DNA of 64,000 nucleotides from Somniosus microcephalus (Eukaryota). The notes under the pieces are model-generated. The model made no database searches. It was not told the DNA's origin and was given only the letters and a program-made list of their open reading frames with translations. Both the position numbers and the translations under genes were made by a program. The stretch's first letter is position 1. Each line of letters starts with the position of its first letter. This document shows positions 3,256-62,802 of this stretch, in pieces. Location: the NCBI GenBank assembly GCA_052327205.1, contig CM126203.1, forward strand, positions 313,658,001-313,722,000. Reading direction: 5' to 3'.

Positions 3256-3506
3256 AACTGGAGTAATGTGTCCAATTCTGGGCACCACACTTTAGGAAGG
3301 ATGTGAAGGCCTTAGAGAGGGTGCAGAAAAGATTTACAAGAATGGTTCCAGGGATGAGGGATTTCAGTTGCGTGGATATACTGGAGAAGCTGGGGTTCTC
3401 CTCCTTAGAGCAGAGAAGGTTGAGAGGAGATTTGATAGAGGTGTTCAAAATCATGAGGGGTCTAGACAGAGTAGATAGAGAGAAACTTCCCATTGGTGGA
3501 AGGGTC
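3256..3506 (+). mobile_element. CR1 LINE 3' RT fragment (left part; resumes at 6261)
   Basis: ORF 3303-3518 ALERVQKRFTRMVPGMR...LEQRRLRGDLIEVFKIMRG is a typical CR1 ORF2 C-terminus; interrupted after ...GAAGGGTC. Confidence 0.9.
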
Positions 3507-6260
3507 ATAGAAACATAGAAGATAGGAGCAGGAGTAGGCCACTTGGCACCTCGAGCCTGTTCCGCTATTTAATGAGATCATGACTGATCATCTAAATTCA
3601 GTACCCTGTCCCTGCATTCTCCCCATATCCCTTAATCCCTTTAGCCTTAAGAAATATATCTAACTCCTTCTTGAATATATTTAATGAATTGGCCTCAACT
3701 GCCTTGTGTGGTAGAGAATTCCACAGGTTCACCACTCTCTGGGTGAAGAAATTCCTCCTCATCTCAGTCCAAAATGGCTTACCCCTTATCCTTAGATTGT
3801 GACCCCTGGTTCTGGACTGCCCTGCCATCGGGAACATCCTTCCTGCATCTAGTCTGTCTAGTCCTGTTAGAATTTTATAAGTTTCAATGAGATCCCCTCT
3901 CATTCTTCTAAACTTTAACAAATATAAGCCTAATCGACCCAATCTCTCCTCATATGTCATTCCTGCCATCCCAGGTATCAGTCTGGTGAATCTTCGCTGC
4001 ACTCTCTCCATGGCAAGAACATCCTTCATCATGTAAGGTGACCAAAACTGCACACAATACTCAAGGTGTGGTCTCACCAAGGCCCTGTATAACTGCAGCA
4101 AGATATCCTTGCTCCTGTACTCAAATCCTCTCGCTATGAATGTCAACATACCATTTGCCTTCTTAACCGCCTGCTGCACCTGCATGCTTACCTTCAGCGA
4201 CTGGTGCACAAGGACACCCAGGCCTCGTTGCACTTCCCCTTTTCCCAATCTATTGCCGTTCAGATAATAATCTGTCTTCCTATTTTTGCCACTGAAGTGG
4301 ATAACCTCGCATTTATCCACATTATACTGCATTTGCCATGCATCTGCCCAATCACCCAACCTGTTCAATTCATGCTGGAGTTTCTCTGCATCATCCTCAC
4401 AGCACACACGCCCACCCAGCTTTGTGTCATCTGAAAACTTGGAGATATTACATCTAGTTCCCTCATCTAGATCATTTAAATATATTGTGAATAGCTGGGG
4501 TCCTAGCACCGATCCCTGTGGTACCCCACTAGTCACTGCATGCTACTCGGAAAAAGACCCGTTTATTCTAACTCTTTGCTTCCTGTCTGCCAACCTGTTC
4601 TCTATCCAAGACAATACCTTACCCCCAATCCCGTGTGCTTTAACTTTGCACGCTAATCTCTTATGCGGGACCTTATCAAAAGCCTTCTGAAAGTCCAAAT
4701 ACATCACATCCACTGGTTCTCCCTTATCTATTCTACCAATTACATCATCCAAAAATTCCAGTAGATTAGTCAAGCATGATTTACCTTTTGTAAATCCATG
4801 TTGACATTGTCCGATCCTGTCACTGTTTTCCTAGTGCTCTGCTATTACATCTTTTATAAAGGACTCTAGCATTTTCCCCACTACCGATGTCAGGCTTACC
4901 GGTCTATAATTCCCCGTTTTCTCTCTACCACCTTTTTTAAATAGTGGGGTTATATTAGCTATCCTCCAATCCATGTGAATTGTTCCAGAGTCTACAGAAT
5001 TTTGGAAGATGACCAGCAATGCATCTACTATTTCTAGGGCCACTTCCTTAAGTACCCTAGGATGTAGATTATCAGGCCCATGGGATTTATCGGCCTTCAA
5101 TCCCATCAATTTCCTAACACCATTTCCCTACAAATACTGATTTCATTCAATTCCTCCCTCTCATTAGACCTTATGTTCCCCGACATCTCTGGGAGGTTAT
5201 TTGTGTCCTCCTTTGTAAAGACAGAACCAAAGTATGTATTTAATTGGTCTGCCATTTCTTTGTTCTCCATTATAAATTTCCCTGATTCTGGCTGCAAGGG
5301 GCCTACGCTTGACATCACCAATCTTTTTCTCTTCACATATCTATAGAAGCTTTTACAGTCAGTTTTTATGTTCCCTGAAAGCTTACTCTCATAATCTATT
5401 TTCCCCCTCTTAATTAATCCCTTTGTCCTCCTTTGCTGAATCCTAAACTGCTCCCAATCCTCAGGTTTGCTGCTTTTCTGGCCAAATTATCTGTCCTCTC
5501 CTTGGATCTTATGCTATCCCTAATTTCCCTTGTTAGGCACGGTTGAATCACCTTTTTTGTTTTATTTTTATGCCAAACAGGGATGAACAAATTCTGTAGT
5601 TCATCCATGCATCTTTAAATGTTTGCCACTGCCTATCTACCGTCAACCCTTTAAGTAACGTTCCCCAATCCATCCTAGCCAACTCATGCCTCATACCATC
5701 GTAGTTTCCTTTATTTAAATTCAGGAACCTAGTCTCTGAGTCAAATACTTCACTCCCCATTTTAATGAAGAATTCTATCATATAATGATCGCTCCTCCCC
5801 AAGGGGCCTCGCACAACAAGATTGCTAATTAATCATTTCTCATTACATAATACCCAGTCTAAGATGGCCTGATCACTAGTTGGTTCCTCAAAATGTTGGT
5901 CCAGGAAACCATCCCGTATACACTCTAGGAATTCCTCCTCCACAGTATTGTTACTAATTTGGTTAGTCCCATCTATATGTAGATTAAAGTCACCCATGAT
6001 AAATGCTGTGCCCTTTTTGCACGTGTCTCTAATTTCCCGTTTAATGCCATTCCCAACCTCAGCATTACTGTTTGGGGGTCTGTATACAACTCCCACTAAT
6101 GTTTTCTGCCCCTTGGTATTTCTCAGCTCTGCCCATAGAGATTCCACATCATCAGAGCTAATATCCTTCCTTACTATTGTGTTAATCTCCTCTTTAACCA
6201 GCAATGCTACCCCACCTCCTTTTCCTTTTTTCCTGTCCTTCCTGAATATTGAATACCCCT
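3507..6260 (-). mobile_element. 5'-truncated CR1 LINE (partial APE endonuclease + RT, disrupted ORF2), inserted antisense into an older CR1
   Basis: ORFs with VGVVYRPPNS/MGDFN (APE), NYRPVSLTS, YLDFQKAFDKVPH, GVPQGSVLGP, SKFSDDTKL; TTCTATG-type tail at about 3507-3520; GGTC repeated at both junctions. Confidence 0.95.
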
Positions 6261-6567
6261 GGTCGAGAACCAGAGGACACAGATTTAAGGTGATTGGCAA
6301 AAGAATCAAAGGCGACATGAGGAAAAACTATTTTATGCAGCAAGTGGTTAGGATCTGGAATGTACTGCCTGAAAAGGTAATGGAGGCAGATTCTATCGTG
6401 GCTTTCAAAAGGGAATTGGATAAGTACCTGAAGAAAATAATTTGTAGGGCTACGGGGAAAGGACGGGAGAGTGGGACGAGCTGAAGTGCTTTTGCAGAGA
6501 GCAGGCACGGGCTCGATGGGCCAAATGGCCTCCTTCTGTGCTGTAACCATTCCATGATTCTATTCTA
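6261..6567 (+). mobile_element. CR1 LINE 3' end (right part of the 3256-3506 element)
   Basis: SRTRGHRFKVIGKRIKGDMRKNYFMQQVVRIWNVLP; ends in CCATTCCATGATTCTATTCTA tail. Confidence 0.9.
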
Positions 6568-9181: not shown

Positions 9182-9445
9182 TGTTATGTTCATTAATAAA
9201 TAGACATTCTTATTATGAACACAGCTAGCTTTTGCTAGACCTTTTATTGAGCACATGTGGACTAGGTACTATATCTGTGGAGGCTTCCATCTTGACTGTT
9301 GCCTTGTGGGTAGCCTAGCCTCATGGGTAATGTAGTCTTAATATATATATATGGCTGGGTAGTGTAGTCTTATACATACAGCTATATACAGCTCTACGGC
9401 TCCACCTAGTGTCCACTATAGAATGACATGTTATTGATCATTACA
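9182..9445 (-). repeat. 3' LTR of element 1
   Basis: TGTTATG...TTACA on the plus strand, direct repeat of 11497-11760, adjacent to the polypurine tract. Confidence 0.95.
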
Positions 9446-9639
9446 TCCCCCTTTCTTTGAGGTTTAACAAAATCAATATCAATCAACTTTCAAGAAAACA
9501 ATAAAGATAATATCAGTAACACTTTTGTTAGTGCTCTATAAACATAAACATTTTCAAAACAGTCAACACATTTTCAAAGCTTTACATTGTACTCAAAGAT
9601 TAAGTCTATCAGGCTTTTTTACTTCACGTGTGGATCTTC

Positions 9640-11451
9640 TCAACACGGGTGAGTCTGATGTGTCTTCATGAGATTGTTCTGGCGGTGAATGACAAGATGC
9701 AGTTGCAGCATTGTCATCAATTTGGTCTTGAATACATCGGGGTCTCCTTGCGATCTTTGCTTGGAGAGGGTTTCAGTGTTTCCTTCACTCTTCATGCCAT
9801 AACTCTCAATATAGTCAATGCACTCTCGAAAAACTGCTGGCAGCTGGATCCCATCATACAGCATAGTCCTCTCAGCAGCCTCGGCTAATGGAACACCAAA
9901 GATTGGCCTGAGGGAAGAAGGAGTATCCACCGGAACTGTTTCCTGCTCTGGTGCAGGCTTCTTCTTTTTCTTTTTCTCTTTCCACTGCTTAACAACATCT
10001 GCTGCGGTTATATCTTTGGACTTTTTCTCCTTGTGTTTTTCCTCTTTGTGCTTTTCTTCCTTTGGCTTCTCTTTGACCTTAAAGTCTTTTTCTTTCTTCT
10101 TGGAGAAACTAGGCTTTTTGAAGACATGGATACCCTTTGGCCTTTTCATCCTTGATGGGGTCTCTGCTTCATCACCTGAGTCATCTGGTCTGCTTATGGC
10201 ACAGTTTATATGGTAGACTCTCTTGACCAGGTCTAAGTCTTCACAAGCTTTGTCACCTAGTATCGAATCAAGTCTTTCAGCCACAACAGAAAACATGAGA
10301 TGATGCACTTTGTCTTTGACTGTCACTTTAAGTCTGCATACACCTAAGCTATCTATTTTCTGTCCATTATAGTCCTTCAGTAGTACTGACTTTTTCTGTA
10401 TTTTGGGCTTTTCTTTCATATTGTTAATGTCACTCATACTGATTAAGTTTGCTTTTGCCCCAGTGTCAAGTTTCAATGTAACTAATGCTCCATTTATCTG
10501 CAGTGGGATCATCCATTTGTCCTCTTTTACTGCATTAACTTTATGTTCAGCATTGTCTATTTCGGAGGGCTGCACATTTTCTGTATCTTTTTTGATATCG
10601 TCACATGACACCATTCCTACAATAAATGTCTCACTTAAATCAGTGTCCTCAATCACATTAACTCGTTGCCCTTTCGTCGTTTTTACTTTTGAAAAGTATT
10701 GTTTGGCAAAGTGATTCTTTCCATTACATTTTGTGCACATTTTTCCAAACGCTGGGCATTGTCTTAACTGGTGTTTGTAACCACAGCGTTTACAATTAAA
10801 AATTTCATCCTCCGATTGCTTTTCATTTCTGTTCTGCCCATGTTTCTTCCCCTTGTAGGACACAGCACCGACAGCAGCATTATCACTCATTACATTCGCA
10901 TCATTATTGATTTCACTGAAAGTCTTCGCGTGCTTTCGAGCTAGCTCGCTGGCTTGGCATATTTTCACCGCATTTTCCAAATTTAGTTCGGTTTCTCTCA
11001 ACAGACGTTCCCTGACTTTTTTATCATGAATACCAAACACAATCTGGTCACGAATCATGGATGCTTTGAGCTCAGAGAAATTACATGTCTGTGCTTTCAG
11101 TTTCAGATCAGTTATAAAGCTATCAAAAGTCTCATTTTGCTGCTGTGTCTGAGAACAGAAGATGTATCTTTCATAGGTCTCATTCTTTTTGGGAGAGCAA
11201 TGTGCATCAAATTTTTTTAGCACATCTTCTAATTTTTCTCTGTTCTCCACTAGATTAAATACAAATGTATTAAATACCTCTATCACCTGTGGGCCTGTAA
11301 CCGTAAGCAGCAATGCTATCTTCCTTGCATCTGGCTTCGTACCGAATCCGATGGCTGCAATGTAGAGTTCGAATTGTTGTTTAAAAATCCGCCAATTGTA
11401 GTCGACATTTCCCTCGAGATTCAAATGCTCTGGTGGCTTCAAATTCTCCAT
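9640..11451 (-). CDS. Chimeric Gag-aspartic protease-RALBP1 fragment protein (about 603 aa from the ATG at 11451)
   Basis: Gypsy Gag (PPEHLNLEGN, MIRDQIVFGI, CKRCGYKH and CTKCNGKNHFAKQY knuckles), protease LDTGAKANL...ILG, then RALBP1-like segment in frame. The ORF-track start at 11508 lies inside the LTR, so MENLKPP is the likelier start. Confidence 0.88.
   Translation of the reverse strand: MENLKPPEHLNLEGNVDYNWRIFKQQFELYIAAIGFGTKPDARKIALLLTVTGPQVIEVFNTFVFNLVENREKLEDVLKKFDAHCSPKKNETYERYIFCSQTQQQNETFDSFITDLKLKAQTCNFSELKASMIRDQIVFGIHDKKVRERLLRETELNLENAVKICQASELARKHAKTFSEINNDANVMSDNAAVGAVSYKGKKHGQNRNEKQSEDEIFNCKRCGYKHQLRQCPAFGKMCTKCNGKNHFAKQYFSKVKTTKGQRVNVIEDTDLSETFIVGMVSCDDIKKDTENVQPSEIDNAEHKVNAVKEDKWMIPLQINGALVTLKLDTGAKANLISMSDINNMKEKPKIQKKSVLLKDYNGQKIDSLGVCRLKVTVKDKVHHLMFSVVAERLDSILGDKACEDLDLVKRVYHINCAISRPDDSGDEAETPSRMKRPKGIHVFKKPSFSKKKEKDFKVKEKPKEEKHKEEKHKEKKSKDITAADVVKQWKEKKKKKKPAPEQETVPVDTPSSLRPIFGVPLAEAAERTMLYDGIQLPAVFRECIDYIESYGMKSEGNTETLSKQRSQGDPDVFKTKLMTMLQLHLVIHRQNNLMKTHQTHPC
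9781..10182 (-). other. RALBP1: Captured host coding fragment: RALBP1/RLIP76 lysine-rich region plus the start of the RhoGAP domain
   Basis: SGDEAETPSRMKRPKGIHVFKKPSFSKKKEKDFKVKEKPKEEKHKEEKHKEKKSKDITAADVVKQWKEKKKKKKP...PIFGVPLAEAAERTMLYDGIQLPAVFRECIDYIESYGMKSEG closely matches vertebrate RALBP1 as recalled. Confidence 0.93.
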
Positions 11452-11482
11452 GTCGCTTTTCACAATTTTCAGCAGATCTTCA

Positions 11483-11496
11483 CCACCCTGGTACCA
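11483..11496 (-). promoter_or_regulatory. Primer binding site of element 1, tRNA-Leu(TAA)-like
   Basis: TGGTACCAGGGTGG directly after the 5' LTR; complement of the tRNA-Leu(TAA) 3' end is TGGTACCAGGAGTGG (one-base gap). Confidence 0.75.
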
Positions 11497-11760
11497 TATT
11501 ATGTTCATTAATAACTAGACATTTTTATTATGAACACAGCTAGCTTTTGCTAGACCTTTTATTGAGCACATGTGGACTAGGTACTGTATCTGTGGAGGCT
11601 TCCATCTTGACTGTTGCCTTGTGGGTAACCTAGCCTCATGGGTAATGTAGTCTTAATATATATATATGGCTGGGTAGTGTAGTCTTATACATACAGCTAT
11701 ATACAGCTCTACGGCTCCACCTAGTGTCCACTATAGAATGACATGTTATTGATTATTACA
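11497..11760 (-). repeat. 5' LTR of element 1
   Basis: Direct repeat of 9182-9445; inner terminal dinucleotide mutated (plus-strand TA instead of TG). Confidence 0.95.
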
Positions 11761-13514
11761 GGGGGGAGGTGGCACTGTGACTGGGTCAGATTCTATCCAT
11801 ACTCATGCACTTTCTGGGAGGAGTGATTTATGATTGGGAGCACTGTTTCTCCCCCCACTCTAGCATAGGGCACAGAGGTCAATTGTCGTGCCCACCAGGA
11901 TGCCACCCTTCACGGAATCAGCTAACTCACCGTAGGCCGAGGTCAAACCTGCAACCTTCCTGCTCGGTTCGCTCAGTTACACACACAGAAGTACAATTAG
12001 CTACTAAATCATTGAGGATGCTATGAGCCATTATGAGAACATTTTAAAAGAGCCCACTGCTATCTATACTCTGAACTGTTCATAACAAAACTAACAATCC
12101 AGGCACAATTATTTAATAAATACCAGTTATTATTACTATCATGAAATTATTGACCTGCTGTGACAGTAAAACACTTCTGAAATAGATGCTTTCCCGCTCA
12201 TGTGGAACAACAAAGCTGTCTCTCAGTAATCCTGAGTGTACGCCACCAATAAATTAAATACTCCCTTTATTCCAACCACCATGAGGGACACCACATTTAC
12301 CACCACTGATTACTACTGTTGCTTTGCTGGTCTTTGCAGGTGTTGTCAGTCTTTGAACATGTGTGGTAGAGTGAAAAAGTAGGGTTGTGGCACTTTGCAA
12401 AATCCAAATCCAGGCAGGGATGAAATTAGGGAGGGGCCCAAGGCTTGGCTTTTGAAGTTTGTTTTACTGATGATGAAATTTCATTAAAAACCTTAATAAC
12501 TAATGTATCCACACTATCAGACCGTGAAGTGGAAAACAGAATACAATTTTATTTAAAAATCCAGATATTTTTGTGTGCATTTTACATTTTAAAATTTTTG
12601 TGGACAACCATCTCAAAACCAGATGGGTGACAACCCAGTTAAAGAGGAAGGGAGAAAAGGAAGAAAGTTGTGAATTAGAAAGAAGCAAACAAGGAAGGTG
12701 TGGCTGAAGTTCTGAGATGAGCTGCTTGTACTCAATGAGTGCGGCTGAGTGCAGTCGGCTGTCAGGAATACTTGTTGGGAACACCCTGATTGTCCTCCTT
12801 CCCAGAGTGAGACTGTAATTCTAGATATAACCCAACATCATGAGAACAAAGTGACAGACTGAATGGGGCCACACCTCTACAGTACCCTAAAGAAAATGGG
12901 AGACTCTTAAATCTTGTATTGTTATTGTTTGTGACATAAAAACAGTACTGCTGTCTTCAAAGGATTAAAGGGTTAACCACGAGATTAATGTTTAAATGCA
13001 GAATGTCCTCACAGTGCTCGAGTTACACTGGCCACTGCAGAACATCAACCCTAAGTGCCACTACAGCCCTACCGGCCTTTGTCCAAACAGGTGTCAACTT
13101 TCCCTTAAAAGCATCCTTCTTTAAAAAGACACAGTTATCAGGTGACTCCGAGCAGGGGCCCGTCCCCTTCCATTAGGCATGCTCAGTGACCTGCATGAAT
13201 GTCAAACAATAGCCAGATGTCACTGATAGTTAAACCGGTGACTGGTTTAATTCCAGCAGCCCAACGGCTGGGATCACAATGCTGCTCGGCGTCACAAAAC
13301 TGGCAAAATGCTGATGCCTTCAAAAAAAAAAGAACTGAGTAGAACAGTGCAAAGGGCTATCAGCGAGCCAGCACATCACACACTGGCTAACTGACTGACA
13401 ACAGTATGGAGGTTTTGCAAAAAGCAAGCCATTAAAACATAAACCATCCAAGGTCATTTCTTCCCAGTGCTGATTAACTATTTTCAGTGGAGCAATGCAA
13501 AAACATTTTTTATA

Positions 13515-13842
13515 TTCATTCATGGGAGGTGGGCGTCACTGGCAAGACCAGCATTTATTGCCCATCCCTAATTGCCCTTGAGAAGCTGGTAGTGAGCCGT
13601 CTTCTTGAACCGCTGCAGTCCGCATAGTGAAGGTACTCCCACAGTGCTGTTAGGGAGGGAGTTCCTGGATTTTGACCCAGCGACGAAGAAGGATCGGCGA
13701 TATAATTCCAAGTCAGGATGGTGTGTGACTTGGAGGGGAACTTGCAGGTGGTAGTGTTCCCATGCGCCTGCTGCCCTTTTCCTTCTAGGTGGTAGAGGTT
13801 GCGGGTTTGGGAGGTGCTGTCAAAATAGCCTTGGCGAGTTGC
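13515..13842 (-). mobile_element. LINE 3' fragment (CR1-group family with GGATGGGCAATAAATG tail)
   Basis: Related degenerate copies at about 6625-6840 (+) and 15705-16300 (-). Confidence 0.6.
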
Positions 13843-14109
13843 ATAAAAATAAAATTATTATGCTGCACTGTATCTGGCAGTTGCACTGTGAGTAACTTTG
13901 GAGACAGCATTACATTTTCCCCATACACTGTTGGCAAAATAAATGCTTCCACTAAAACCACAGGCTGCCACTTTTACTAGTCACCAGCAGTCTGAGCGAT
14001 CAATCCACCCATACAGGCTAGCCATGGAGTTTCCCAATCACTGGAATATTACCAAGGACTTGAGATTCGCAAAGTGAGCCCTGCCATAGTTCTAGGGCAG
14101 GGGTGGGCG

Positions 14110-14270
14110 TTTCTTAAACCCGACCTCTTCGACCACGCTTTTGGTCATCTGCCCTAATATCGCCATACGTGGCTCGGTATCAAATTTTGCTTGGTAACTT
14201 TCCTGTGAAGCGCCTTGGGATGTTTTACTACATTAAAGGCGCTATATAAATACAAGTTGTTGTTGTTGTC
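14110..14270 (+). mobile_element. L2 LINE 3' tail
   Basis: CCTGTGAAGCGCCTTGGGATGTTTTACTACATTAAAGGCGCTATATAAATACAAG(TTG)n; same tail at about 26870-26937. Confidence 0.75.
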
Positions 14271-14738
14271 CACACAAGTACTGAAGCAGAGCTAAGGAAT
14301 TCAAGATTTACTTTTGAATTTTCTGCCCAAGGGATCTTGAAAATCATCCATTTTGCACCTTAAATCAAGTTGTGGTTGTTAGCAACGCTGTTGCAGGGAA
14401 CCTTCCTCAGCCATCAAAGAAGGTCAGAAATAAAATGTAGTAGTTATGTTACTGGACCAGTAATCCCGAGGTCTGGACTAATAATACAGAGAATCTGGGG
14501 GAAAAATTGAGTCGCGCCCCCCTTTGGGGCGTTACCTTCGCCAGAGCGCTACTTTTAGTGCCCCGAAAAAATTAGTGCCCCCGCGGCCAAAATTGAGTCG
14601 TAGCGCCCCAAGAGGGAAGCGCCCCGCCTCCCTCTTGGGGTGCTGCGAGGGAATATTGCGGCGCTACGTGCTGCAGCACCATGCAATGCTGCCTTGCCAG
14701 TAACGCCAACATCCCAAGAATACATTTTTAAAAATCAT

Positions 14739-15451
14739 GGCCTAGAAATTCAGTAAGGCGCTGCCAGCTTTGCGGCCAGTTACCGCCCAAAGAGGGCTTC
14801 TGCGCCAATAGAGGAGTTTGCGCTGATATTCAGCGCAGCGGTAATGGCGGCGGTAGCCGTTAGCGCTGCGCCGGCACCGATGACGTCATCGGTGTGTGCA
14901 GTGCCCCGGTTCCGTCCCGATACCGGCCCGACCCCCATATTTAGTTGCGGCCGCCTCTTCCGCAGCGGCCGCAAACAGCGATCAGAAAACGGGGCCGTAC
15001 TGTAGCCTTAGTGGGGCGCTTTAAGGTGGAGGTGCGGCCGGCCGCATTTTCGGCGGCCGCCTGCCCGCACCTCCTTCCCCGGCCTCCTCCACCACCCCCC
15101 CCCCGCGGCATTGCCGGCTGCTTTCCGCGAACCCGGCACTTCTCCGTGGTGCCTGGCTCATTTGCCGGCACTATCCAGCGGCGATCTCCCTGTTGCAGGC
15201 ACCTCCCCCTTAAGAGAAGGAGGAGGCCTGCAGTACCGCAGCCTGCCGCTCCGCAGCGGGTGGCGCAGTGGCGCCTAGAGCACTGAAATTCAGTTTCAGC
15301 GCCCCAAGCGGGGGCGGGCACACCCTGGAATAGTGCCCGGTTCCGACTTGGGGCGCAAAAACTGAATATCTGACGCGCGCAACTGGCTCCGCGCTCAGCG
15401 CTAACTTTTGGGCGCATGCCAGCTGGTGGGCCCAAAGTGAATTTCTAGGCC
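14739..15451. mobile_element. GC-rich MITE, PIF/Harbinger-type
   Basis: 14-bp TIR GGCCTAGAAATTCA/TGAATTTCTAGGCC, 3-bp TSD CAT; related inverted copy at 44832-45541; truncated relative at about 14497-14707. Confidence 0.8.
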
Positions 15452-18137
15452 CATGACTTTTAAACAATTGCATGCGCATAAGGTTGCTTATTGAAAGAAA
15501 AAAGCAGGGGCAGAGCCGGAAAAGGGAGCGTGTGAACTTATTTTTAGGGAGGAGGTTGCAGAAAAGTAGGGTAGAGCAAGGCCACGGAGAGCTTGTAAAT
15601 GAGAATCAAGATTGTAACCTGTTAGCAGCTGGATCAGCAGCATAATTTCAGAGGCCTGAGGGCAGATCGCCTGCCTGGCTTATCAACCAGACACTGACAA
15701 ACCCGAATTTATCGCCCATCCCTAGTTGCCCTGAGGAGGTAGTGCTTGAGTTGATGCCCCCACGATGATGCAAGCTAGGGAATGCCAGGATTTTATTTAT
15801 TTATTTTGCAGCAGATACAATGAAAGTATAACGGTATATGCCCAAGTCGGGATGGTGCGTGACTTGGAGGGGAAATTTGAGCTGATGTTGTTCCCATGAT
15901 CTTGCAGCTCTTGATCTTTCTGGTGGTAGAGGTTGCAGAGCTAGGAGGTGCTGTCACAGTAAACTTGGTGAGTTACTGCAACGCTTCCTGTAGAGAGTAC
16001 ATACTGCAGCCACAGTACACTGGTGAAGGGCAGGGTGGATACTGCGTCCAGTGGCAGGGGTACCAATGAAGTGGACTGAGCTGTGCTGAATGATGTCAAG
16101 CTTTTCAAGTTATTGCAGCTATACCCAACCAGATGAGTGGTGAGTAATCCATCTAATGTAAGTGTTCTAGGTGGTGGAGAGGCTTAGAGAGGTCAGGAGG
16201 TCACATCTTGTAGCCACGTGCTGATATAGCGGGTCCAATTAAGCTTCGGGTAAATGGTGACCCCAGGATGTTGATGATGTGGACTTGGCAAATGGTGGTA
16301 CCGTTGTAGGCCATAAGTAGGCTCAAGGTCCCTTAACCTTGACATTCAAACACAGTTCAATCCAACAGGGATCGATGGTTAATGATCAGAAGCAGGAAAC
16401 CTGGCTTCTTTTTCCCTTCACAGCCCAGGAGGGTTGAAAACAATTGTTAAGACCCCTACCCTTTCCACTACCCCTAACTTGGTACAGATGAGGCATTAAA
16501 CTTAGAACCTTCCTGGTCTGTTCTGGCTCAGTTTCACATTGGATAATATACTTAAAGTACTGGGCCATCGGCGGGGAGATACCACCAGATTTCTTTGTTA
16601 AACAGTGCAATAGGTTTTCTACGCAACTTCAGTTATTATCTCTTTCAGCAGCTGTCACTACTGTTCTAGCTGGCTATTACAGAAGGTGGTTCCCCGTCTG
16701 AAGTTCAAACTGCACCATTTGGATAAATCCAAACTGTCTTGGAGCTCATTCTTGCATGTTGTATCAACCACTCTACAGCAGTCATTTGTATTTCCATATT
16801 TATACAAACTGAACATCCCAGTCCATGGAAATGACTGCAAATGCTAAGCAAGTGGTCCTTGAGCCCAGTACTTTAGACTGCATACACTATGTTGCTTCAG
16901 TCATTTTAAATAGATTTTGAAACACATTTGACTACTTTTGTAGAACTAGAAAAAAAAGCGATTGGGAGTTTAAGGTCGATATAGAGGGTTCAGGGAAATC
17001 GTTGACAAAGTAGTCAAACTAGTGACTGCAAAAGGGGCTTCACTAGCATGTTCCATATCATCACGAGAGCATTGGACAAAATAGAGGGTGGGGGAGGAGA
17101 GTATCTCTGGAGACTGGTCATATTACTTACCCAGAAAACAAAAGCATTCTAAAACTCACTGCAATATATTACACCAGGGTATTCCTGCTATACTTGCCCA
17201 TCGTTTCTGCTCCCCATATTCACAAGGCTAAAGTTGGAAACTCACAATGTAGTGCACTGAGGATATTAACAACTTGACATCAGACGAAAACCTGGCTCAC
17301 TTACGTCACTCATTTCCCCTGACTAAGGCCACCCTGCCTAGCTACATGATCCACTATGAACCCCCCACCCAAACCATTGTGACAGTAGTGTGGCTCTCTT
17401 CTCCAGGTCCCATCTTAACCAGACCCCTTCATCTTCCGGCACTTTATCATCTTTTTGAGTATCTTATCCTCTTACACTCATCCCTCTTCTCCTTTGAGGT
17501 CCTTATTCTCCATCATCCTCCCAAGTATCAATGCAACTTCCTTGAAAACAATCACCTCCCTTCTCTCCTCACTTATCCTCTATACTGAGCAACTAATTTT
17601 TAGTGATTTTAACATTCACCTAAATGTCCCATGATTAAATCTCTTCTGATTTCTCTACCTTCCTCTCATCACTCACTTCATCCCGCCCTTCAACTCCCCA
17701 CCCACACCCAGCAACTTTGACCTCATTAACACACAAGACCTTGCCACTTCCAAGGTCAGCATTCACATCATCCTGCCTGTCTCCAGCCCTTGTCAGAGGT
17801 ATTGTGAATACTTGACCATGGAAAGCTTTAGAGTTGAGCCTGATCCTGTCCGCACTGGGCATCCACTACACATGCACTTTCCGTAGGGGAGGAGGGGGAG
17901 GTCACTGGATAGAGATCAGAAGCAGGAAACCTTGCTGATTTTTTTTCTCTCTTCCTTGCCTAATTGTGGACCATTTCTACCACTGCCCTGGACCATTTCT
18001 ACCACTGCCCTGACTGAGGTCAGCTAACTCACCTGGGACCTTTCCGGCCTGTAAACCTCAGTACTACACTGGGCATCAAACTGGCCAACTGAACTATCGG
18101 GAAGCTTATCAGTCAGTTTATAAGTGGATCACGGCTG

Positions 18138-18535
18138 TCTTTTGCACATAAATCTAGGCTGACACTCTAGTGCAGTGCTGAGGGAGTGCTGCACCGTCGG
18201 AGGTGCCATCTTTTAGATGAGACATTAAACCGAGGCCCCGTCTGCTCTCAGATGGACATAAAAGCTCCATGGCACTATTTTGAAGAACAGCAGGGGAGCT
18301 ATCCCCGGTGTCCTGGCCAATATTTATCCCTCAATCAACAAAACTAAAACAGATTATCTGGTCATTATCACATTGCCGTTTGTGGGAGCTTGCTGTGCGC
18401 AAATTGGCTGCCATGTTTCCCACATTACAACAGTGACTACACTCCAAAAGTACTTCATTGGCTGTAAAGTGCTTTGAGACAGCCAGTGGTCGTGAACGGC
18501 GCTATAGAAATTCAAGTATTTATTTCTTTTTCTTT
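18138..18535 (+). mobile_element. SacSINE1-like Deu-domain SINE (5'-truncated)
   Basis: GTCGGAGGTGCC..GATGAGACATTAAACCGAGGCCCCGTC core and L2-like tail; many copies in the window. Confidence 0.8.
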
Positions 18536-20338
18536 TGTTCAGTCTGTGCTTCCACCCTTGTGCATCTTTGAAGAACAATTTCCAATTCACAATTTTAAAA
18601 CCTAAAGCCTACAAGGCCTCAAAGACTACAAACAATGGCAAGAATTTGGCAGACCGTTCATCTGTGGCTTATAATTATGATATCAATAAAAATCACACAA
18701 GCGACGGGACACAATAAGCAGTCAATTTAAGCACTCACGTACAGCAGCAGTACTCAGAGCAACATTATTATTCACACCAGTAAGAGCCTTCTAGAACTGC
18801 ACAGTTATGCAAATTTAGCTTATTGGCTTAATCTCACTGACTACACGGTTTCTGTACAGCAGCAGTATAGTAGCTTCATTATCTCATTACAAAGCAACAG
18901 TTGCATTATTACAATATGCTTTTGTAGAGGACAAAAGGAAGTAATTTTGATCAAATAGGGTATCAGTGGAAGGCCCATATGAAAAAAGAGACAGTGAAGA
19001 TGGGAAAATAATGAGTAAGCATAGCAGAACAAAAGGTCTTTTGGGCTCTTGCTTCAAAGCCACAGTGATGGACCCATGGGCTTTGCGGGACAGTTTTGCA
19101 CAATTGATTTTCAATGACATAATTAGTTGTCATATCTTATTTCTGTAAAATTATGTTTCAAAAGTCCTAAAAGAAAACTCATGGATAAGTTAATGACACC
19201 GTGTAGAAATATATGCTGCAAAGGTCCCAGATTCAGTCGCCAATCTGATTTGAATTAGTTCTTCTCAAATGAGATAATTGTAGGCCTGCTAGGGTTGGTT
19301 TCAGCAACCCGGGAGTAAGGATGGGAACAAAGTCAGCTAAGATTCCCTCTTCTGATGCTACCTAGGGACTCCTGGCAGAAAGAGTGCACACATGAACATC
19401 AGGGAAGGTCAGGGTTGGGCTCGGGTCACGGTGCCTCACACAGTATGCCGATACTTCATGTCCACGCTCATTTGGGCAAGATAATGGAGCAGCGTCAGCA
19501 CCTGTGGAATGATATCCTGGCAAAAGTCAGGATGGGAAGGGAGAATAAAGTCTGTTGGGGTGGGAATTCTACAAAATAGCCATGCTATTACAACAGCAGT
19601 CAAACACACGTGTAGGGAAAAGGAATGTAATCTCACAGTCAGCTTCTAACATTGCAAACTTTAGATTGTCGCTTGTTAGCCAGCATTTTGTTTCCTCACT
19701 TTATGCAAAGCGTACACTGCATTGCTGGAGTTACTCTGCGATTCAAATTGAATCAGCTATTTATTCAAAATATTTTCCAAGTAATGCAATGGGGTTGCCA
19801 CATCTCATTTACAGTGTATTTATGGCAGGGGCACAGGGTCATCGCAAACAGCAACTGTGCACCTATACAGTTACAGCAGAGTCTCTATAAAACGGCAGCA
19901 GGGACAATGTAAAATGGATGTCAAAGTAATAAACAGGTTATGAACACAATGTTTTTTACTATGGAGTAGAACTTTTGTGGAGTTCTCCTGATCTTCCACC
20001 ATAACTCTTCCTTGGTTCCTACAGATAAATCTAAGGACCGACTACAGGTCCCAATTGCCCATTAAGCTAGCACCTCACAGCATCATGCATCACTCACTCT
20101 TTCCAAAGCAAGGAACGGCACAGATATATCCTCCGCAGAGGATTTAGATAGTCAGTTTGAGGAGGGTGCACCAGGTGTTACACAGGTCAGAAGTAGGAGG
20201 GAGCAGGTGACGGTGGGAGAGGAGGAATCTGATGGCCAGAGGGCTAGCTCCAATCTTTCAGAACTGTGGAGAACAGGGATTCGCACCTCAGGGGACCCAA
20301 GCCTAAAAGGATACTATTTGAGCATCATTGTTCCTTGC

Positions 20339-20595
20339 TGTTAAATCTGTGAGTTGTTCAAGTAATTAATACTCAGACTTAATCAGTAACAATAAAACAG
20401 GTCTTTACTGGTTGGAGGTAGGGACTATACGTAGGTCTTTACTTCATGCCCACAGGTGGGAACTGAGGGGAGATCAGTACCCACAGTACTATTTATACCC
20501 CTGTGGCCAGGAGTGGTACTGCGTATCACTACGCCCAACAAGTAGTGCAGTCCTGTCCATAGGTTCAAAGTAGCACACATATTACATACACAACA
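20339..20595 (-). repeat. 3' LTR of element 2
   Basis: Direct repeat of 23689-23945; minus strand has GGGGTATAAATA (TATA-like) and AGTAAA (polyA-signal-like). Confidence 0.97.
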
Positions 20596-20911
20596 TTCCT
20601 CCCTTCCTAGCTTTACAGTCATCTCCCCATTTAACATAACGTAATAACATATATACATATATAACTTCAGGTTTACATAACAGAATAACATAGATACATA
20701 GATAACTTCATGTCAAAACAGATCACAGATTCAGTCTCTGCGGAAAACAGTTCACAGATTCAATCTCTGTGGTGGAGTCGGTTTACGTTGCTGGAGTGAC
20801 TCATTCAATAGTCCTTCCATGGATTTAACAGTTTGAACTTCCGAACTGAATTGGCTCCGTTCGGAGGGACCACGTGTGTGATCTGGTAGAGGTGATAATG
20901 GTTCAGATGGG

Positions 20912-21180
20912 TCATCTTCTGTTTTTACTTTTCCTTTTCTGCTTCTTGGAGACTCTCTGGGCTCCATTGTCAGCTGCCACAGCTGCCAGCTGCATGCGCA
21001 GTTCCTCCTTCTCTTCCTCCTGTTTCCGTCGTAGAGCCAGCTTCTCCCGATGTTCCGTAGACTTTTGGTGCTCCTCCATGATTTCTGCACTTTGGGAGTC
21101 GAAGTTACAAGCTGGGCAGGACAGGACATCGTAATATTCGGTGTCGTCCACCAGGTCATAGTAATATTCGGTGTCGTCCT
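20912..21180 (-). other. DNAJC21: Captured host fragment: DNAJC21-like C2H2 zinc finger with acidic lead-in and basic tail
   Basis: [46 protein letters not shown]...[12 protein letters not shown] vs recalled [46 protein letters not shown]...QKLSKKQKKKKQK. Confidence 0.75.
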
Positions 21181-23143
21181 GAGCTAGACCAGTGAGAGGG
21201 TCGTCTATTTCCTCCATACCCAGCTGGACGTTAGCCAGCTCTTGTTCCAAATCCAGACATCTTTCCTGAAGAGACTTCTTCATGTGTACCTCTGCATCCA
21301 GCTTTTTCTGGGCTTTCAGCAAGTCGTTTACTAGTGACCTCATTTGTGATTTTAATACTTCAACTTCCTTTGGAGATTGATTGATCGGACTATGCAATCC
21401 CTCTACCGGAGCAGCTGTTTCAGCGGTCTGTTGTTCTACGTTGACGTGAGTCAGCGTACTTTTGGCATCCAAGGGCTGCTCTGTTGCAGTCATCTCAGTC
21501 TGTGTTGCCACCTCAGCTCTTCCAATAACCTTTGAGAGCTCCGAACCCCTTTCGTTTGAATATTGAAGTTCGTGTTCAAGTTTTTCCCATTTCAGAGTCC
21601 TGTCCTTCAGCATATGCAGGAGTTGGCTGACCGTTAACTCCTCTGACATCAGACGTTTTGTGTGCTCCTGTTCCATTTTCTCCATCAGCTGCTTCTGTTG
21701 TCTTTCCAGATTCTCCAACTCTATGTCAAAGAACTCTTTCGTTGCATTCAACTCTTGCTCACAACGGCGAAGCATTTGTTCTAATTGCTGTTGTAGTTTG
21801 AAATGGAGTTGAGTTCGAGCCCGGTGTCCCTCAGAAATGGGCACATCAGTAGACTTGCCAGACTCAGAATCCACAGTTAAACTATGTTGTTGTTGCTCAG
21901 TGGAATTCTGTGCTGAAACTTTGTCTTTTGCACCTGAGTTGGGCTTACCATCATCCGTTCCAGAGTCTGGGCCGACTATCTTCACCGAGTTCTCACTCGT
22001 TATTGTTTGTAGGAAATGCCAGTCCATATTCATTTTCCTAATCCACTCCCGTCCTAGTAGTGGAGGACCTCCTTCAGATATCACATATAAGTCCATTATT
22101 TGACTGTCTTCGCCCTTGTGGACCACTGCAACCTCTATTTTCCCGATGGGGTACACTCTTTGCCCCGTGTATGTTTCCAATATAATCCCCGTATCCTGTA
22201 GGGGAATATGTTGGAATAACTTTCCGTAATCTTTCTTATTTATGACCGTCAATGCCGATCCAGTGTCCAATTCCAGTTTTACTTGGACTCCTTCTATCTG
22301 AAGAGTGACCCAAATTGTCTGGAGGTCTGCACCCTTACCAGCGTTGAGTACTCTTAAGCTAGCCAGTTCATTACTGCTAGCGTCTGAATCGGAGTCCTGT
22401 TCGGTCACCTTGTGTACCTTTGCGTATTTTCCTTGCGGTGACTTCTTGTTGCTGGTCTTCTTCGCTGACCTGCATACTCTAGCTATATGTCCAAGCCTAC
22501 CACAAGTTCTACATTCTTGGTTTTTAAACCAACACTGGTTCTGATCATGCGTTGTCTTTCCACAACGATAACATTTGCCAGAACTCACACCCAATTTGTG
22601 TGCACTGAGCTCCGGTGACCGTAGCTGCATTACTGCCGTGCCTCTCGCTGCGGCTTCGTGTGCTGCTGCCATAGTGACCGCCTTCTCAAGCGTCAGCTCA
22701 TTCTCCGCGAGCAGTCGCTTTTGTGTATCCTGTTTAAATAAACCACACACAAATTTGTCTCGAAGTGCCTCTGTCAGTCCCGTTCCAAACTGGCAATATT
22801 TCGCTAATTTACGCAATTCCAGCAAATAATCAGCATTGCTTTCATGCTGTAGCTGCCTTCTGTCGTAAAATTTAAATCGTTCCGCTAGCATCAGCGGCGT
22901 GGGGTTTAGATGATCTTTCAGGACAGTAACAATCTCATCGAACGTCTTATCCGCCGGTTCATCTGGTGATAACAGGTGTTTCAATTGCCCGTATGTCTTC
23001 GCACCCATTAAATTTAATAATGTTAGAGCTTTATCTTGGTCACGAATTTTATTGGCCTTACAATAATTTTTTACTCTTTCAACATATATGGCCCAATCTT
23101 CGAGGTCACTATCAAAGGTGCTAATATTCCCATGTTTAGGCAT
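20912..23143 (-). CDS. Chimeric Gag-protease-STK10/OPTN/DNAJC21 fragment polyprotein (743 aa from the ATG at 23143)
   Basis: Gag ([30 protein letters not shown], two CCHC knuckles), protease LDTGSALT...LLGREW, then about 360 aa of non-Gypsy sequence with no stop. The ORF-track start at 23263 is a GTG. Confidence 0.92.
21220..21646 (-). other. OPTN: Captured host fragment: optineurin central coiled coil
   Basis: [14 protein letters not shown]...EKLE...RAEVATQTE...[41 protein letters not shown] vs recalled [14 protein letters not shown]...ERLE...RSEIETQTE...[41 protein letters not shown]. Confidence 0.85.
21650..21832 (-). other. STK10: Captured host fragment: STK10 (LOK)/SLK PKK coiled coil
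   Basis: [57 protein letters not shown] vs recalled STK10 [57 protein letters not shown]; paralog SLK not excluded. Confidence 0.82.
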
Positions 23144-23677
23144 TGTAGATTTGCAATTTCTCAGATTTTTTTTTTTTACTGCTATCCAAGATGGCGGCTT
23201 CCCGCTCTTGCCGTCGTCCTCCGCCCACAAAATGGCGGTTTTCCCGCGCTTGGCGGTCTTCACCCGTCCCCCAACGCCGTCTCCCTTCAGCCCCCGAGTG
23301 CGGCCCTTATCTTCGCCGCGATCGCCCGAGTGCGGCCCTTATCAGCGGATGCGATCGCTGGATCGCGAAGCGGCTCTTATCAGGAGATGCGATTGCTCCG
23401 TTGAAACGCCTCCCGCTCGAAGCGGCTCTCGCGCCCTATTCCTCCAGCTCCCCCAGCCCCGTTCGTGCGGCCAACGCGGTCGACTGCCTGTCGCGTCGCT
23501 GCCCGGCTCAGACAACGGCTTACCCACCACCAAGCTGGAGAAGAAGCTGACGGTCGCCGATGGAGGCTCCGAGGTCAGGATGTCTTCCAGTGGGGTGGAG
23601 AGGGTGGAAACCTCTCTGCAACGTCCTGGCTGTGGACGAAGCTGCCGTGGAGTGACTGCCGCAGGGTCCGAATCAGA

Positions 23678-23687
23678 CTCGTCGCCA
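23678..23687 (-). promoter_or_regulatory. Primer binding site of element 2, tRNA-Ser(GCT)-like
   Basis: TGGCGACGAG one base after the 5' LTR, complementary to ...CTCGTCGCCA. Confidence 0.8.
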
Positions 23688-23688
23688 G

Positions 23689-23945
23689 TGTTAAATCTGT
23701 GAGTTGTTCAAGTAATTAATACTCAGACTTAATCAGTAACAATAAAACAGGTCTTTACTGGTTGGAGGTAGGGACTATACGTAGGTCTTTACTTCATGCC
23801 CACAGGCGGGAACTGAGGGGAGATCAGTACCCACAGTACTATTTATACCCCTATGGCCAGGAGTGGTACTGCGTATCACTACGCCCAACAAGTAGTGCAG
23901 TCCTGTCCATAGGTTCAAAGTAGCACACATATTACATACACAACA
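23689..23945 (-). repeat. 5' LTR of element 2
   Basis: Direct repeat of 20339-20595. Confidence 0.97.
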
Positions 23946-59900: not shown

Positions 59901-61699
59901 ACTCTGAGCTTGCCTGTACGTGGTTTCTCAACCAATACTAATGCGTTGACCCACTCTGTCGGTTCTGTTTCCCGGACGATGATTTCTGTATTCTCCATGC
60001 TCTGCAGCTCCTCCTTCAGGCGACTACGTAGAGCAAGGGGTATCCTTCTCGGTGGGCAAACCACAGGGGTTGCTGCTGGGTCAAGGTGAATAGTGCATTC
60101 ACCTGGGAATAGTCTGATTCATTTGAAAACATCAGCAAACTCCTCCATGACTGTCTGCTTCTCAACTGGTGCTGTCAATGATAGCACTAGCTCTACGAGG
60201 TCCATGTCTAAACATGCCTTTAGACCTAGCACTGGAGGTGCTCGAGTGTCAACAATGTAAAAGTCCAACATCATGTCGCTTTCTTTGTACTTGCATTTCA
60301 TCACGCATTGCCTTTTACAATGAGCTGCTCACCCCCATAGCCGGTCAGTCTGTGTGAGGTGGGCTGTAGCTCACACTCATCCTTCAAGCTGTGATACTCA
60401 CTCAGAGGAATTACGTTAACCTGAGATCCAGTGTCTAGTTTAAACTTAAGCTCTTTGCCCTGTTTTCCTATCTCAATATCGGCATAGGCTTGCTCAGTCT
60501 CTGAAATCTGTTTTTTCTGTGACACAGAATCAATAAACAGTTCCTCTGCATTTGGCTCTCTATCTGGCATTTGGCTGTCACTCACTGTGTGTACTGTTTT
60601 TCCAAAAGCAGTCCTGCAGACTTTAGCAAAGTGGTTCCGTTTACCACATTTAGTACATTGCCTTCCTTTGGCAGGGCAGTACTCCTTTTCTCCATGCCAG
60701 TTGTTTCCACAATATCCACAGTTTTTGAAGTGTTTTATGTCTGTGTCGCCCATTTTTAGAACTCTCTCTCTTTCTGTTCTGAAACACGTTTTCTGGGCGG
60801 TGTTCTTTGGTGTGTGTCTATTAACTGCGTGCACTGTCTGTTCACTCGAACTGTTCGTGGCGCCGGTTATGGTTTTCAACTGTGCTTGGGCTATCTCATG
60901 CGATCTAGCTATGTCCATAGCTTTGTCCACCTTTAGCCCGGACCCAACATTCAAAAGTTTCTCTCTCACTTTAGCTGAATGTATTCCAAACATGATGCGG
61001 TCTCTGACCATCTCATCTTTATCGGCATATTCAAAGTCTTTTACCAGTAGTTTTAACTCATTCACGAACTGTTCAAACGACTCACTAGCTCCTTGTACTT
61101 TCTCCTGAATCTTGTACCTAGCAAATATCGTATTTGTCTTGGGCATCACATATGCTTCAAAACGGTCAAAATAACTTTTCAGTACCTTTGCTTCGTCCGC
61201 GGTGAGAGACCATGTGTTAAAAATGTCTCTCCCTTTTTCTCAGATCCATAGGAGTAGGTAGCTGCATCTTTCTTCCTCCCCTTTGTTTTTCAACGGGCCC
61301 GAGAACATTAACTCCACGTGCTGCTTCAACTTGCACCATTCTCTATGTAAGTTCAAAGATTCCCAATTCATTCGAGGTAAGGGAGCTCCAACGATGTCCA
61401 TTTCAAATCCCTGTTCTGACAACATGTCTTGTTTTGCACACTTTGTACAAAAATAATAAATTGCAGGACAACGGAGTATTACAGTTTAAACTCTTTTATG
61501 AAGCATCAGGTCTGTGATGTTTCTCATACAGCACCGTGTGGCCAAGATGGAGTTAGGACCCTGGGTCTTCCAAAACAATAGTAGTCCTTACAGATGCCTG
61601 CAGGCCAATGACAACTCAGCATGTGATCACATGTGAATATAATAGGTATTCCTTACAGATGCCTGCGGGCCAATGATAATTCAATATGCAAATGTTACA
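56978..61699 (-). mobile_element. Full-length Ty3/Gypsy LTR retrotransposon (element 3), inactivated
   Basis: 275-bp LTRs 56978-57252 and 61425-61699 (3 mismatches), TSD CAGAG, PPT 57253-57265, PBS TGTTGTCAGAA (tRNA-Leu(CAA)-like, 1 mismatch). Confidence 0.97.
57437..61403 (-). pseudogene. Gypsy gag-pol (Gag, CCHC, PR, RT, RNaseH, IN) with six in-frame TGA stops and one frameshift
   Basis: LDTGSQVN; LRVCLDPRDLN, RLPFGL, IVDDIL; VDASKYGLG, YAQIEKE, SDHKPL; HAGHMG, ATDLF, SDNGPQ, GLAEK; ends TRSGREVKPRVILDL. Confidence 0.95.
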
Positions 61700-62700: not shown

Positions 62701-62802
62701 AAGGATATGCTCCTGCCCTCTTTCACACAGTCAAGAAGAAAATCCTCCCCTGAGTTTCAGCAGGTTATTCACCCCTCGGGGAGCATCAGGACCAAACGTG
62801 AT

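What the first reader, a model, noticed from the sequence alone, without database searches (positions are those of the whole stretch)
9182..23945. Recurring class of Gypsy elements: Gag-protease fused in frame to captured host protein domains in place of RT/RNaseH/integrase
Seen: two elements about 9 kb apart have unrelated LTRs, different PBS (Leu vs Ser tRNA) and dissimilar Gag. Both share the plan LTR-PBS-[gag-PR-host fragment(s), one open frame]-remnant pol tail (...RLNL*)-PPT-LTR, with near-identical LTR pairs. Known: Gypsy protease cleaves the polyprotein near the PR/RT boundary, and template switching during reverse transcription captures cellular mRNA (as in oncogene-transducing retroviruses and LTR-mediated retrogenes). 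Inference: independent convergence on keeping Gag+PR and putting host cargo where RT normally sits suggests a propagating class of non-autonomous elements. These would build particles, borrow RT/IN in trans, and package or release host-derived domains. Both cargoes are non-catalytic and contain strongly basic, NLS-like stretches ([21 protein letters not shown]). I know of no description of this in cartilaginous fish but cannot verify novelty.
Basis: partly seen in the sequence, partly recalled or inferred. Interest (0 to 1): 0.95.

Follow-up and report, generated by a model that had tools for sequence, protein, structure and literature searches.

The report
Retrotransposons carrying host mRNA and circRNA
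Two families of jumping genes in a shark-like genome swapped their own copying enzymes for pieces of host genes and still spread to many sites, and one descends from an element that copied a host circular RNA once around, leaving a clear record of how circular RNAs get written back into a genome.

Summary
Confirmed and extended. Both elements are real, dispersed, non-autonomous Gypsy LTR elements with Gag-protease fused in frame to host fragments. E1 (9182-11760) carries RALBP1 pieces: 40 of 40 scored genome hits are full-length, 25 of 30 have perfect 5-bp target duplications. E2 (20339-23945) carries STK10, optineurin and a zinc-finger piece: 41 full-length hits at 99%, 9 of 9 checked have duplications. 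RT-encoding helpers sharing the protease end exist for E1 and for E2's parent family. New: E2 descends from a family whose cargo is exactly one lap of a back-spliced STK10 circle (five spliced exons, last donor joined to first acceptor, entry and exit at one microhomology site); 1,136 copies keep that junction. Optineurin, a new Gag-protease/LTR backbone and the zinc finger came later. The E2 family is transcribed, mostly sense, in one of two RNA runs of a related organism. Function of the cargo protein is unproven: dN/dS about 0.6 (p 0.04), neutral after insertion, no domain kept throughout. Gene capture by LTR elements and circRNA pseudogenes are known separately; I found no report of this combination or scale. 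The scan's notes held no such finding.

The parts
11497..11760 (-). E1 5' LTR (264 bp)
   Evidence: 5-bp duplication CCCCC on both sides
11487..11496 (-). E1 primer binding site TGGTACCAGG (tRNA-Leu by recall)
9640..11451 (-). E1 single ORF, 603 aa: Gag (aa 1-263), linker, protease with DTG (aa 312-424), RALBP1 piece (425-557), out-of-frame tail (558-603)
9782..10180 (-). RALBP1 piece from inside one host exon, in frame; 8 substitutions and one 15-nt repeat deletion against the host; 5' junction microhomology CTCAG with the helper
9735..9788 (-). Piece of the RALBP1 C-terminal end (17 of 17 residues as in P0002), out of frame, joined to the exon piece at GTGAAGG
   Evidence: host last exon itself not fetched
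9593..9734 (-). E1 integrase tail remnant ending KPDRLNL*, other frame
   Evidence: 92-94% to helper 3' ends
9182..9458 (-). E1 polypurine tract (9446-9458) and 3' LTR (9182-9445)
23689..23945 (-). E2 5' LTR (257 bp)
   Evidence: duplication GCAAG
23678..23687 (-). E2 primer binding site TGGCGACGAG (tRNA-Ser by recall); same as in L040
21998..23143 (-). E2 Gag (two CCHC knuckles) and protease (DTG); backbone only about 78% identical to the parent family's
21651..21998 (-). STK10 pieces in frame: two parts of host exon B, then exons D-E spliced; 85-93% to host
21207..21658 (-). Optineurin piece in frame (P0121 aa about 225-384), lacking the NEMO-type, CC2-LZ and zinc-finger domains
20920..21206 (-). 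C2H2 (jaz/met-type) zinc-finger piece of unidentified host origin (DNAJC21 is a recalled lead), ending in the basic stretch and the stop
   Evidence: (zf-C2H2_jaz E 0.014, below cut-off)
20800..20920 (-). STK10 exon A-B pieces (the second half of the circle), past the stop, other frame
20752..20808 (-). E2 integrase tail remnant ending PPQRLNL*
20339..20608 (-). E2 polypurine tract (20596-20608) and 3' LTR (20339-20595)

Best explanation
These are parasitic, non-autonomous Gypsy elements. In a particle made by an autonomous element, reverse transcriptase jumped at short shared words from the integrase tail onto a co-packaged host RNA and back onto the protease-RT linker, replacing RT-RNaseH-IN with host sequence (shown as a sequence footprint). 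For E1 the template was RALBP1 mRNA; for the E2 lineage it was a back-spliced STK10 circle copied exactly once around. The products keep LTRs, PBS, PPT, Gag and protease, are transcribed (shown for E2), and are copied with RT/IN from helpers (inferred). Repeated co-packaging let the E2 lineage delete parts, add optineurin and a zinc finger, and move onto new 3' ends and a new Gag-PR/LTR backbone (order inferred from shared junctions). The long frame is most likely kept because Gag-PR works in cis and because a frame that runs close to the 3' LTR with a soluble, charged tail is tolerated and may protect the RNA from decay; the cargo acts as tolerated filler under weak constraint rather than as a specific accessory protein (inferred, about 60:40).
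For: Copies and target duplications. Five host exons with AG acceptors and GT/GC donors, found once each for the two circle ends; element order B3'-C-D-E|A-B5' with exact splice joints; 1,136 junction copies, control 0; none of the listed hits runs past the circle's end though the query went 86 residues further. Microhomology TATTGGATGAG (helper linker) and TAGATGAG (helper IN tail) with the same host site; CTCAG for E1. Helpers: 8 of 8 and 12 of 12 fetched pattern hits run into RT. Gag-PR dS 0.5-1.15 against cargo dS about 0.17-0.19 between E2 and siblings marks a backbone swap. Cargo is richer in D/E/K/R (0.33-0.43) and poorer in hydrophobic residues (0.21-0.22) than Gag-PR or RT. Motifs gained are lost again: E2 lacks the optineurin part with the DSFVEI motif that siblings carry.
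Against: In-frame cargo shows dN/dS about 0.62 pooled (42 N, 25 S, p 0.039) while the STK10 piece past the stop shows 1.5 (11 N, 3 S), which fits some amino-acid constraint. Nine junctions of known frame in the E2 lineage, upstream of the final stop or in the parent families, are all in frame against a baseline of 0.4-0.5 each; more than RNA protection may need. No protein, particle or cleavage data. Helper for E2's present backbone was not found (not searched). The parent circle was not seen in RNA.
Confidence: 0.62

Rival explanations
1. Same origin, but the cargo is a selected accessory protein: the protease releases a host-derived coiled-coil or basic fragment that helps the element (transport, nuclear entry, or decoy against autophagy or innate sensing).
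For: dN/dS 0.43-0.49 uncorrected and 0.62 corrected for the mutation spectrum; no stop in 67 cargo substitutions (chance 0.09); all internal junctions in frame; chimeras far outnumber exact helper matches in the STK10 lineage (1,136 against 16); sense transcription across the cargo. A TQT motif (dynein light chain binding, recalled) is kept in E2 and 4 of 4 siblings.
Against: Cargo content keeps changing; catalytic and known binding domains are missing; E1 copies decay neutrally (private changes dN/dS 0.85 in cargo, 1.06 in Gag; 13 of 31 broken) and hold too few shared changes to test; each region alone is not significant (STK10 p 0.23, OPTN p 0.054).
Confidence: 0.25
2. The permuted STK10 cargo came from a linear exon-repetition transcript (trans-splicing or a lost tandem duplication) or from two separate template switches, not from a circle.
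For: Sequence alone cannot tell a circle from an exon-repetition mRNA; no inverted repeat was found in the 7.7 kb host stretch fetched.
Against: One acceptor and one donor in the assembly; joint exact at both splice sites with only a 2-base overlap; entry and exit at the same site give one lap with nothing from outside the five exons.
Confidence: 0.1
3. Assembly artefact or single post-insertion events.
For: None found; one pair of E1 loci (L022, L023) shares flanks and is a segmental duplicate.
Against: Dispersed copies with their own target duplications; near-identical sequence in runs labelled as four organisms.
Confidence: 0.01

Closest known systems
LTR-mediated retrocopies in animals (Tan et al. 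2016, PMC5131818; passages read) and maize Bs1 as described there
   Same: Host mRNA pieces replace part of the internal ORF, microsimilarity at joints, several genes in one element, co-transcription, further rounds of copying.
   Different: There the cases are polymorphic or few-copy (Bs1 one to five copies; five in zebrafish). Here families reach hundreds to over a thousand copies, keep Gag plus protease in one frame with the cargo, gain genes serially and change backbone. The word 'circular' does not occur in that paper's main text.
circRNA-derived pseudogenes (Dong et al. 2016, PMC4897178; main text read whole, supplements not read)
   Same: Non-colinear exon joint at splice sites, sequence confined to the circle's exons, no poly(A); mouse circRFWD2 copies (33 high-confidence) lie beside MMERVK10C LTR sequence.
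   Different: That paper calls the mechanism unresolved. Here both template partners are present, both switch points are resolved to one site, the lap is complete and in frame with Gag-PR, and 1,136 copies keep the joint. The mouse copies may be the same process; their supplements could narrow this difference.
TR-GAG non-autonomous elements of plants (passages of PMC8704663)
   Same: LTR element that keeps a Gag frame, lacks RT/IN and moves with a helper.
   Different: No host cargo described there; these keep the protease and carry host coding sequence.
Host domains in bird endogenous retroviruses (PMC12287698, abstract and section 11 read) and gag-onc transducing retroviruses (recalled)
   Same: Repeated capture of cellular coding sequence by LTR elements; gag fusions that depend on a helper.
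   Different: Those are retroviruses; these are env-less Gypsy elements, cargo is non-catalytic fragments, and spread is in the germ line.

Membership tests
Ty3/Gypsy LTR retrotransposon | LTRs TG..CA, PBS, PPT, target duplication | tested here: met
Ty3/Gypsy LTR retrotransposon | Order protease-RT-...-integrase in the autonomous form | tested here: met
   RVT_1 directly after the protease end and rve/Integrase_H2C2 at the 3' end of helper loci
Ty3/Gypsy LTR retrotransposon | Placement by RT phylogeny | not tested
   no labelled reference set; relatives carry Pfam 00078/17917/17919/17921/00665
Mag group of Gypsy (features recalled) | 5-bp duplication, two Cys/His knuckles, gag and pol in one frame | tested here: met
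   protease and RT in one frame in helper pieces; whole helper frame not read
Mag group of Gypsy (features recalled) | RT tree groups with Mag | not tested
   label remains a recalled lead
LTR-mediated retrocopy (Tan 2016) | Host sequence replaces internal ORF, with microsimilarity at the joints | tested here: met
   11 and 6-8 bases for STK10, 5 for the E1 5' joint; none clear at the E1 3' joint
LTR-mediated retrocopy (Tan 2016) | Introns absent (RNA template) | tested here: met
   STK10: four forward splice joints exact in L040/L041, two kept in E2. E1: indirect only, one exon piece joined to the C-terminal end
LTR-mediated retrocopy (Tan 2016) | Co-transcribed and copied again as a non-autonomous element | tested here: met
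   (E2 only for RNA)
circRNA-derived pseudogene (Dong 2016) | Back-splice joint, donor of a later exon to acceptor of an earlier exon | tested here: met
   met in the parent family; the window's E2 has lost the joint under the optineurin insert but keeps the permuted order
circRNA-derived pseudogene (Dong 2016) | The parent circRNA is expressed | not testable with these tools
   element transcripts carry the same joint at 99% identity; needs RNase R data
TR-GAG | Single ORF for Gag, no RT or integrase | tested here: not met
   RT/IN absent, but the ORF also holds protease and host cargo; works like one, not filed as one
Transducing retrovirus (recalled) | Retroviral lineage, envelope supplied for infection | tested here: not met
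   no env frame in E1, E2 or L040; helper 3' ends run from integrase to PPT and LTR

The most novel reading that the evidence does not exclude
Gypsy elements in this fish lineage evolve accessory genes from captured host RNAs, circular RNA included: the cargo is translated with Gag, released by the protease and selected because it helps the element spread, so the STK10, optineurin and zinc-finger series records the stepwise birth of a retroelement accessory protein.
Probability: 0.25. Interest if true: 0.92.

Novelty: new variant of a known kind. Interest (0 to 1): 0.78.

Why it matters
It gives a base-resolved natural record of a circular RNA being copied into a genome by an LTR retrotransposon, with circle donor, helper element and over a thousand descendants all in one assembly; the paper that defined circRNA pseudogenes left this mechanism open. 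It also shows that gene-capturing LTR elements can become abundant, long-lived, transcribed families that keep shuffling host exons in frame, which bears on exon shuffling, on genome growth in a 6.4-Gb genome, and on how retroelements gain accessory genes. In practice, thousands of near-host copies of RALBP1, STK10 and optineurin pieces will confound annotation, RNA-seq mapping and circRNA calling in this species group.

Tried and rejected
Misassembly and single-copy readings: rejected. Window element E3 (about 56978-61699) as helper: rejected, Gag-PR 24-28% identical and no LTR match. Tandem genomic duplication of STK10 exons: not present in the assembly. Inverted repeats flanking the circle: none in the 7.7 kb fetched, flanks short. 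Host source of the zinc-finger piece: not found; the genome search returned only element copies, Pfam and Atlas give only a generic C2H2 type, PDB nothing. Host optineurin gene: not reached (one search returned only intronless copies), so siblings stood in for it. Same chimeras in public protein sets: none among the 120 best hits of each of three searches by Pfam labels and names; I looked at only 18 proteins by Pfam scan and 8 by eye, and did not screen the 150 hits for cargo; P0318 (Gag plus C2H2 fingers) and P0459 are unfollowed. Run search listed no RNA holder; the RNA evidence comes from two raw-read runs added by species label. Helper 3' ends for E1: 3 of 8 fetched stretches showed tail and LTR, 1 only an LTR end, 4 nothing. 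Uncorrected dN/dS overstates constraint; the corrected value is used. Gag-PR dN/dS of 0.13-0.25 between E2 and its parent mostly reflects evolution in autonomous lines and is not used as proof of selection in the chimera. No structure or complex was predicted. The Bs1 paper was not held. Literature searches (listings and abstract starts unless stated) showed no report of this class in cartilaginous fish or of a circRNA fused to Gag-PR; the library lacks most subscription journals and Repbase/Dfam were not available.
Full report
Setting. The window lies on contig C2 of a 6.45-Gb assembly. The best protein matches of the cargo are all from sharks and rays, so the host is taken to be a cartilaginous fish; this is inference.

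Observation. Both elements are as described. E1 spans 9182-11760 and E2 20339-23945, both on the minus strand, with LTR pairs differing at 6 of 264 and 2 of 257 bases and 5-bp target duplications. Their Gag-protease regions are 23% identical and their LTRs unrelated. In both window copies the integrase tail (...RLNL*) lies in another frame than the long ORF.

Copy number. For E1, 40 of 40 scored hits (6,701 first-look candidates, which are not copy numbers) cover the element at 96-100%; 25 of 30 fetched have a perfect 5-bp duplication, 3 have one mismatch, 2 none, and two loci share flanks. LTR pairs differ at a median of 3 sites. 18 of 31 copies keep the full frame. For E2, 41 of 43 matches are full-length at 99-100%; 9 of 9 checked have their own duplication. 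Its last 107 residues are identical in 148 of 150 scored hits, 116 of which lie in frames of 743 aa or more; these were picked for identity, so the share is biased upward.

E1 cargo. 399 bases from inside one RALBP1 exon (host at C7, L031), with 8 substitutions and a 15-base repeat deletion. It is followed, out of frame, by 17 residues matching the very end of RALBP1, joined at GTGAAGG; about 400 codons lie between them in the protein, which points to an mRNA template, though the host last exon was not fetched. A pattern for the E1 protease end without cargo has 5,297 matches; 12 of 12 fetched run into RT, sharing CTCAG with the host at the joint. Three of 8 fetched 3' stretches show the same tail and LTR (81-94%).

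E2 cargo and its history. The cargo is STK10, optineurin and a zinc-finger piece. Searching the genome with the host proteins exposed two larger families. One has Gag-PR, STK10 385-478, STK10 616-690, optineurin 131-384 or 131-428, STK10 about 307-390 and the integrase tail in one frame (4 loci read, chosen for long frames, of 66 scored). The other has STK10 only, circularly permuted: residues 385-704 followed directly by 291-387. The host gene on C8 has five exons for this stretch, A to E, with AG acceptors and GT donors (GC for C), 1,245 bases in all, a multiple of three; the acceptor of A and the donor of E each occur once in the assembly, and database isoforms also break after residue 704. 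In L040 and L041 the order is B(3' part)-C-D-E-A-B(5' part), every joint exact, 98-100% identical to the host. The E-to-A joint is a back-splice joint; 1,136 places carry it, reversed control 0. The element enters and leaves at the same host site, TTGGATGAG. The autonomous parent has TATTGGATGAG in its protease-RT linker (16 exact pattern matches, 8 of 8 fetched run into RT) and TAGATGAG in its integrase tail (2 of 4 fetched 3' ends; the other 2 belong to a sister subfamily whose tail appears in L036-L039). Reverse transcriptase leaving the tail for a circle, going round once and returning to the linker gives exactly this product. An exon-repetition mRNA would too, and cannot be excluded by sequence.

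Order of events (inferred from shared joints): circle capture; B-to-D deletion and optineurin insertion over the back-splice joint; then, on the line to E2, further deletions, the zinc-finger piece with a frameshift that ends the ORF, and a new backbone (Gag-PR dS 0.5-1.15 against cargo dS 0.17-0.19; LTR largely unlike L040's). E2 keeps the permuted order but not the joint. Unexplained: E2 cargo is only 85-93% identical to host STK10 although its copies are 99% alike and the older family is 99% like the host; many rounds of error-prone copying are the likely cause.

Expression and range. In two RNA runs of organism B, which holds 78% of E2's sampled words in another run, 15,050 of 16.65 million and 13,625 of 14.40 million reads lie on E2, over all 30 bins, about 5,700 in each at 99% or better. 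In X21 first mates on the plus strand outnumber the others about 10-30 times over the cargo, which in the usual stranded library means sense RNA; X22 shows both directions about equally, so it adds no strand evidence. These are family totals from a related organism. Contigs of organisms C and D also cover 30 and 23 of 30 bins. E1 expression was not tested.

Selection. Private changes in E1 copies are neutral in Gag and cargo (1.06, 0.85) and the cargo has only 3 shared changes (one a stop), too few to test; protease shows 0.36-0.50. On the E2 branch in-frame cargo gives 42 N to 25 S, about 0.62 after correcting for the mutation spectrum (p 0.039; STK10 alone 0.71, p 0.23; optineurin 0.53, p 0.054), the past-stop STK10 piece 1.5 on 14 changes, and no stop has chance 0.09. 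Nine joints of known frame are in frame against a baseline of 0.4-0.5 from chance microhomologies; five of them are not part of E2's own ORF (0.45 to the fifth is about 0.02), but my loci were picked for long frames. Two E1 joints and the last E2 joint are out of frame, all near the 3' end. This fits selection for a long frame and a harmless tail better than for a given domain, without excluding the latter.

Comparison. Capture by LTR template switching (PMC5131818, passages) and circRNA pseudogenes (PMC4897178, main text whole; supplements not read and may bear on the mouse case) are known, as are Gag-only non-autonomous elements (PMC8704663, passages) and host domains in bird retroviruses (PMC12287698, abstract and one section). 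PMC7264820 (abstract and passages) states that transduced frames in plant elements occur in one or a few copies. Ten searches found no report of high-copy Gag-PR-cargo families or of a circle captured in frame. Names recalled and from no call: Mag group, tRNA-Leu/Ser, LC3-interacting and dynein-light-chain motifs, DNAJC21, Tudor/TDRD, UBR7.

Verdict. A real, propagating class with at least two independent lineages; a new variant of a known process, notable for the circRNA footprint and scale. Interest 0.78.

Noticed in passing
L032/L085/L086 (G000:C8 about 142362130-142365140) and L033 (C10 81149600-81152900): A third cargo-carrying LTR element of about 3 kb (direct repeats about 500 bp, 89% alike) with no Gag or protease: spliced RALBP1 exons ending at the exon donor, then a Tudor-like piece (recalled), an LDL-receptor class A repeat (Pfam E 5e-4) and a UBR7-like PHD piece (recalled). 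Four related hits. RALBP1 was thus captured at least twice.
   Followed up: partly
window 56978-61699 (-): A third Gypsy element with 275-bp LTRs (99%) and Gag, protease, RT and integrase in broken frames; unrelated to E1 and E2.
   Followed up: partly
window 20979, 21640, 21650, 22017, 22404 (loose ends): RNA reads leave E2 at fixed points by the hundred: sibling forms with the longer optineurin joint, the parent-type linker, a variant zinc-finger stretch reading EHREMVALQ (resembles DNAJC21 by recall) and an unidentified insert at 21640, so further cargo variants are transcribed.
   Followed up: no
L036-L039: Optineurin-bearing siblings end in a frameshifted arginine-rich tail (…RRRRHRRD) and have long GA-rich repeats in the 5' leader.
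   Followed up: no
G000:C12 155239536-155256039; C2 244606767-244613741; C4 152774509-152778527: Copies of E2 or E1 in close or tandem arrays, perhaps sharing LTRs.
   Followed up: no
L060 5318 (host STK10 exon C): Exon C uses a GC donor; the elements are spliced correctly there.
   Followed up: yes
P0318: A public protein with Gag of this type followed by an acidic run and C2H2 fingers, without protease: possibly another Gag-host chimera.
   Followed up: no
window 62702-64000; 3506-6262 and 45647-48401: A 14-bp tandem array at the window end, and two copies of a 2.7-kb repeat (about 93%) in opposite orientation.
   Followed up: no
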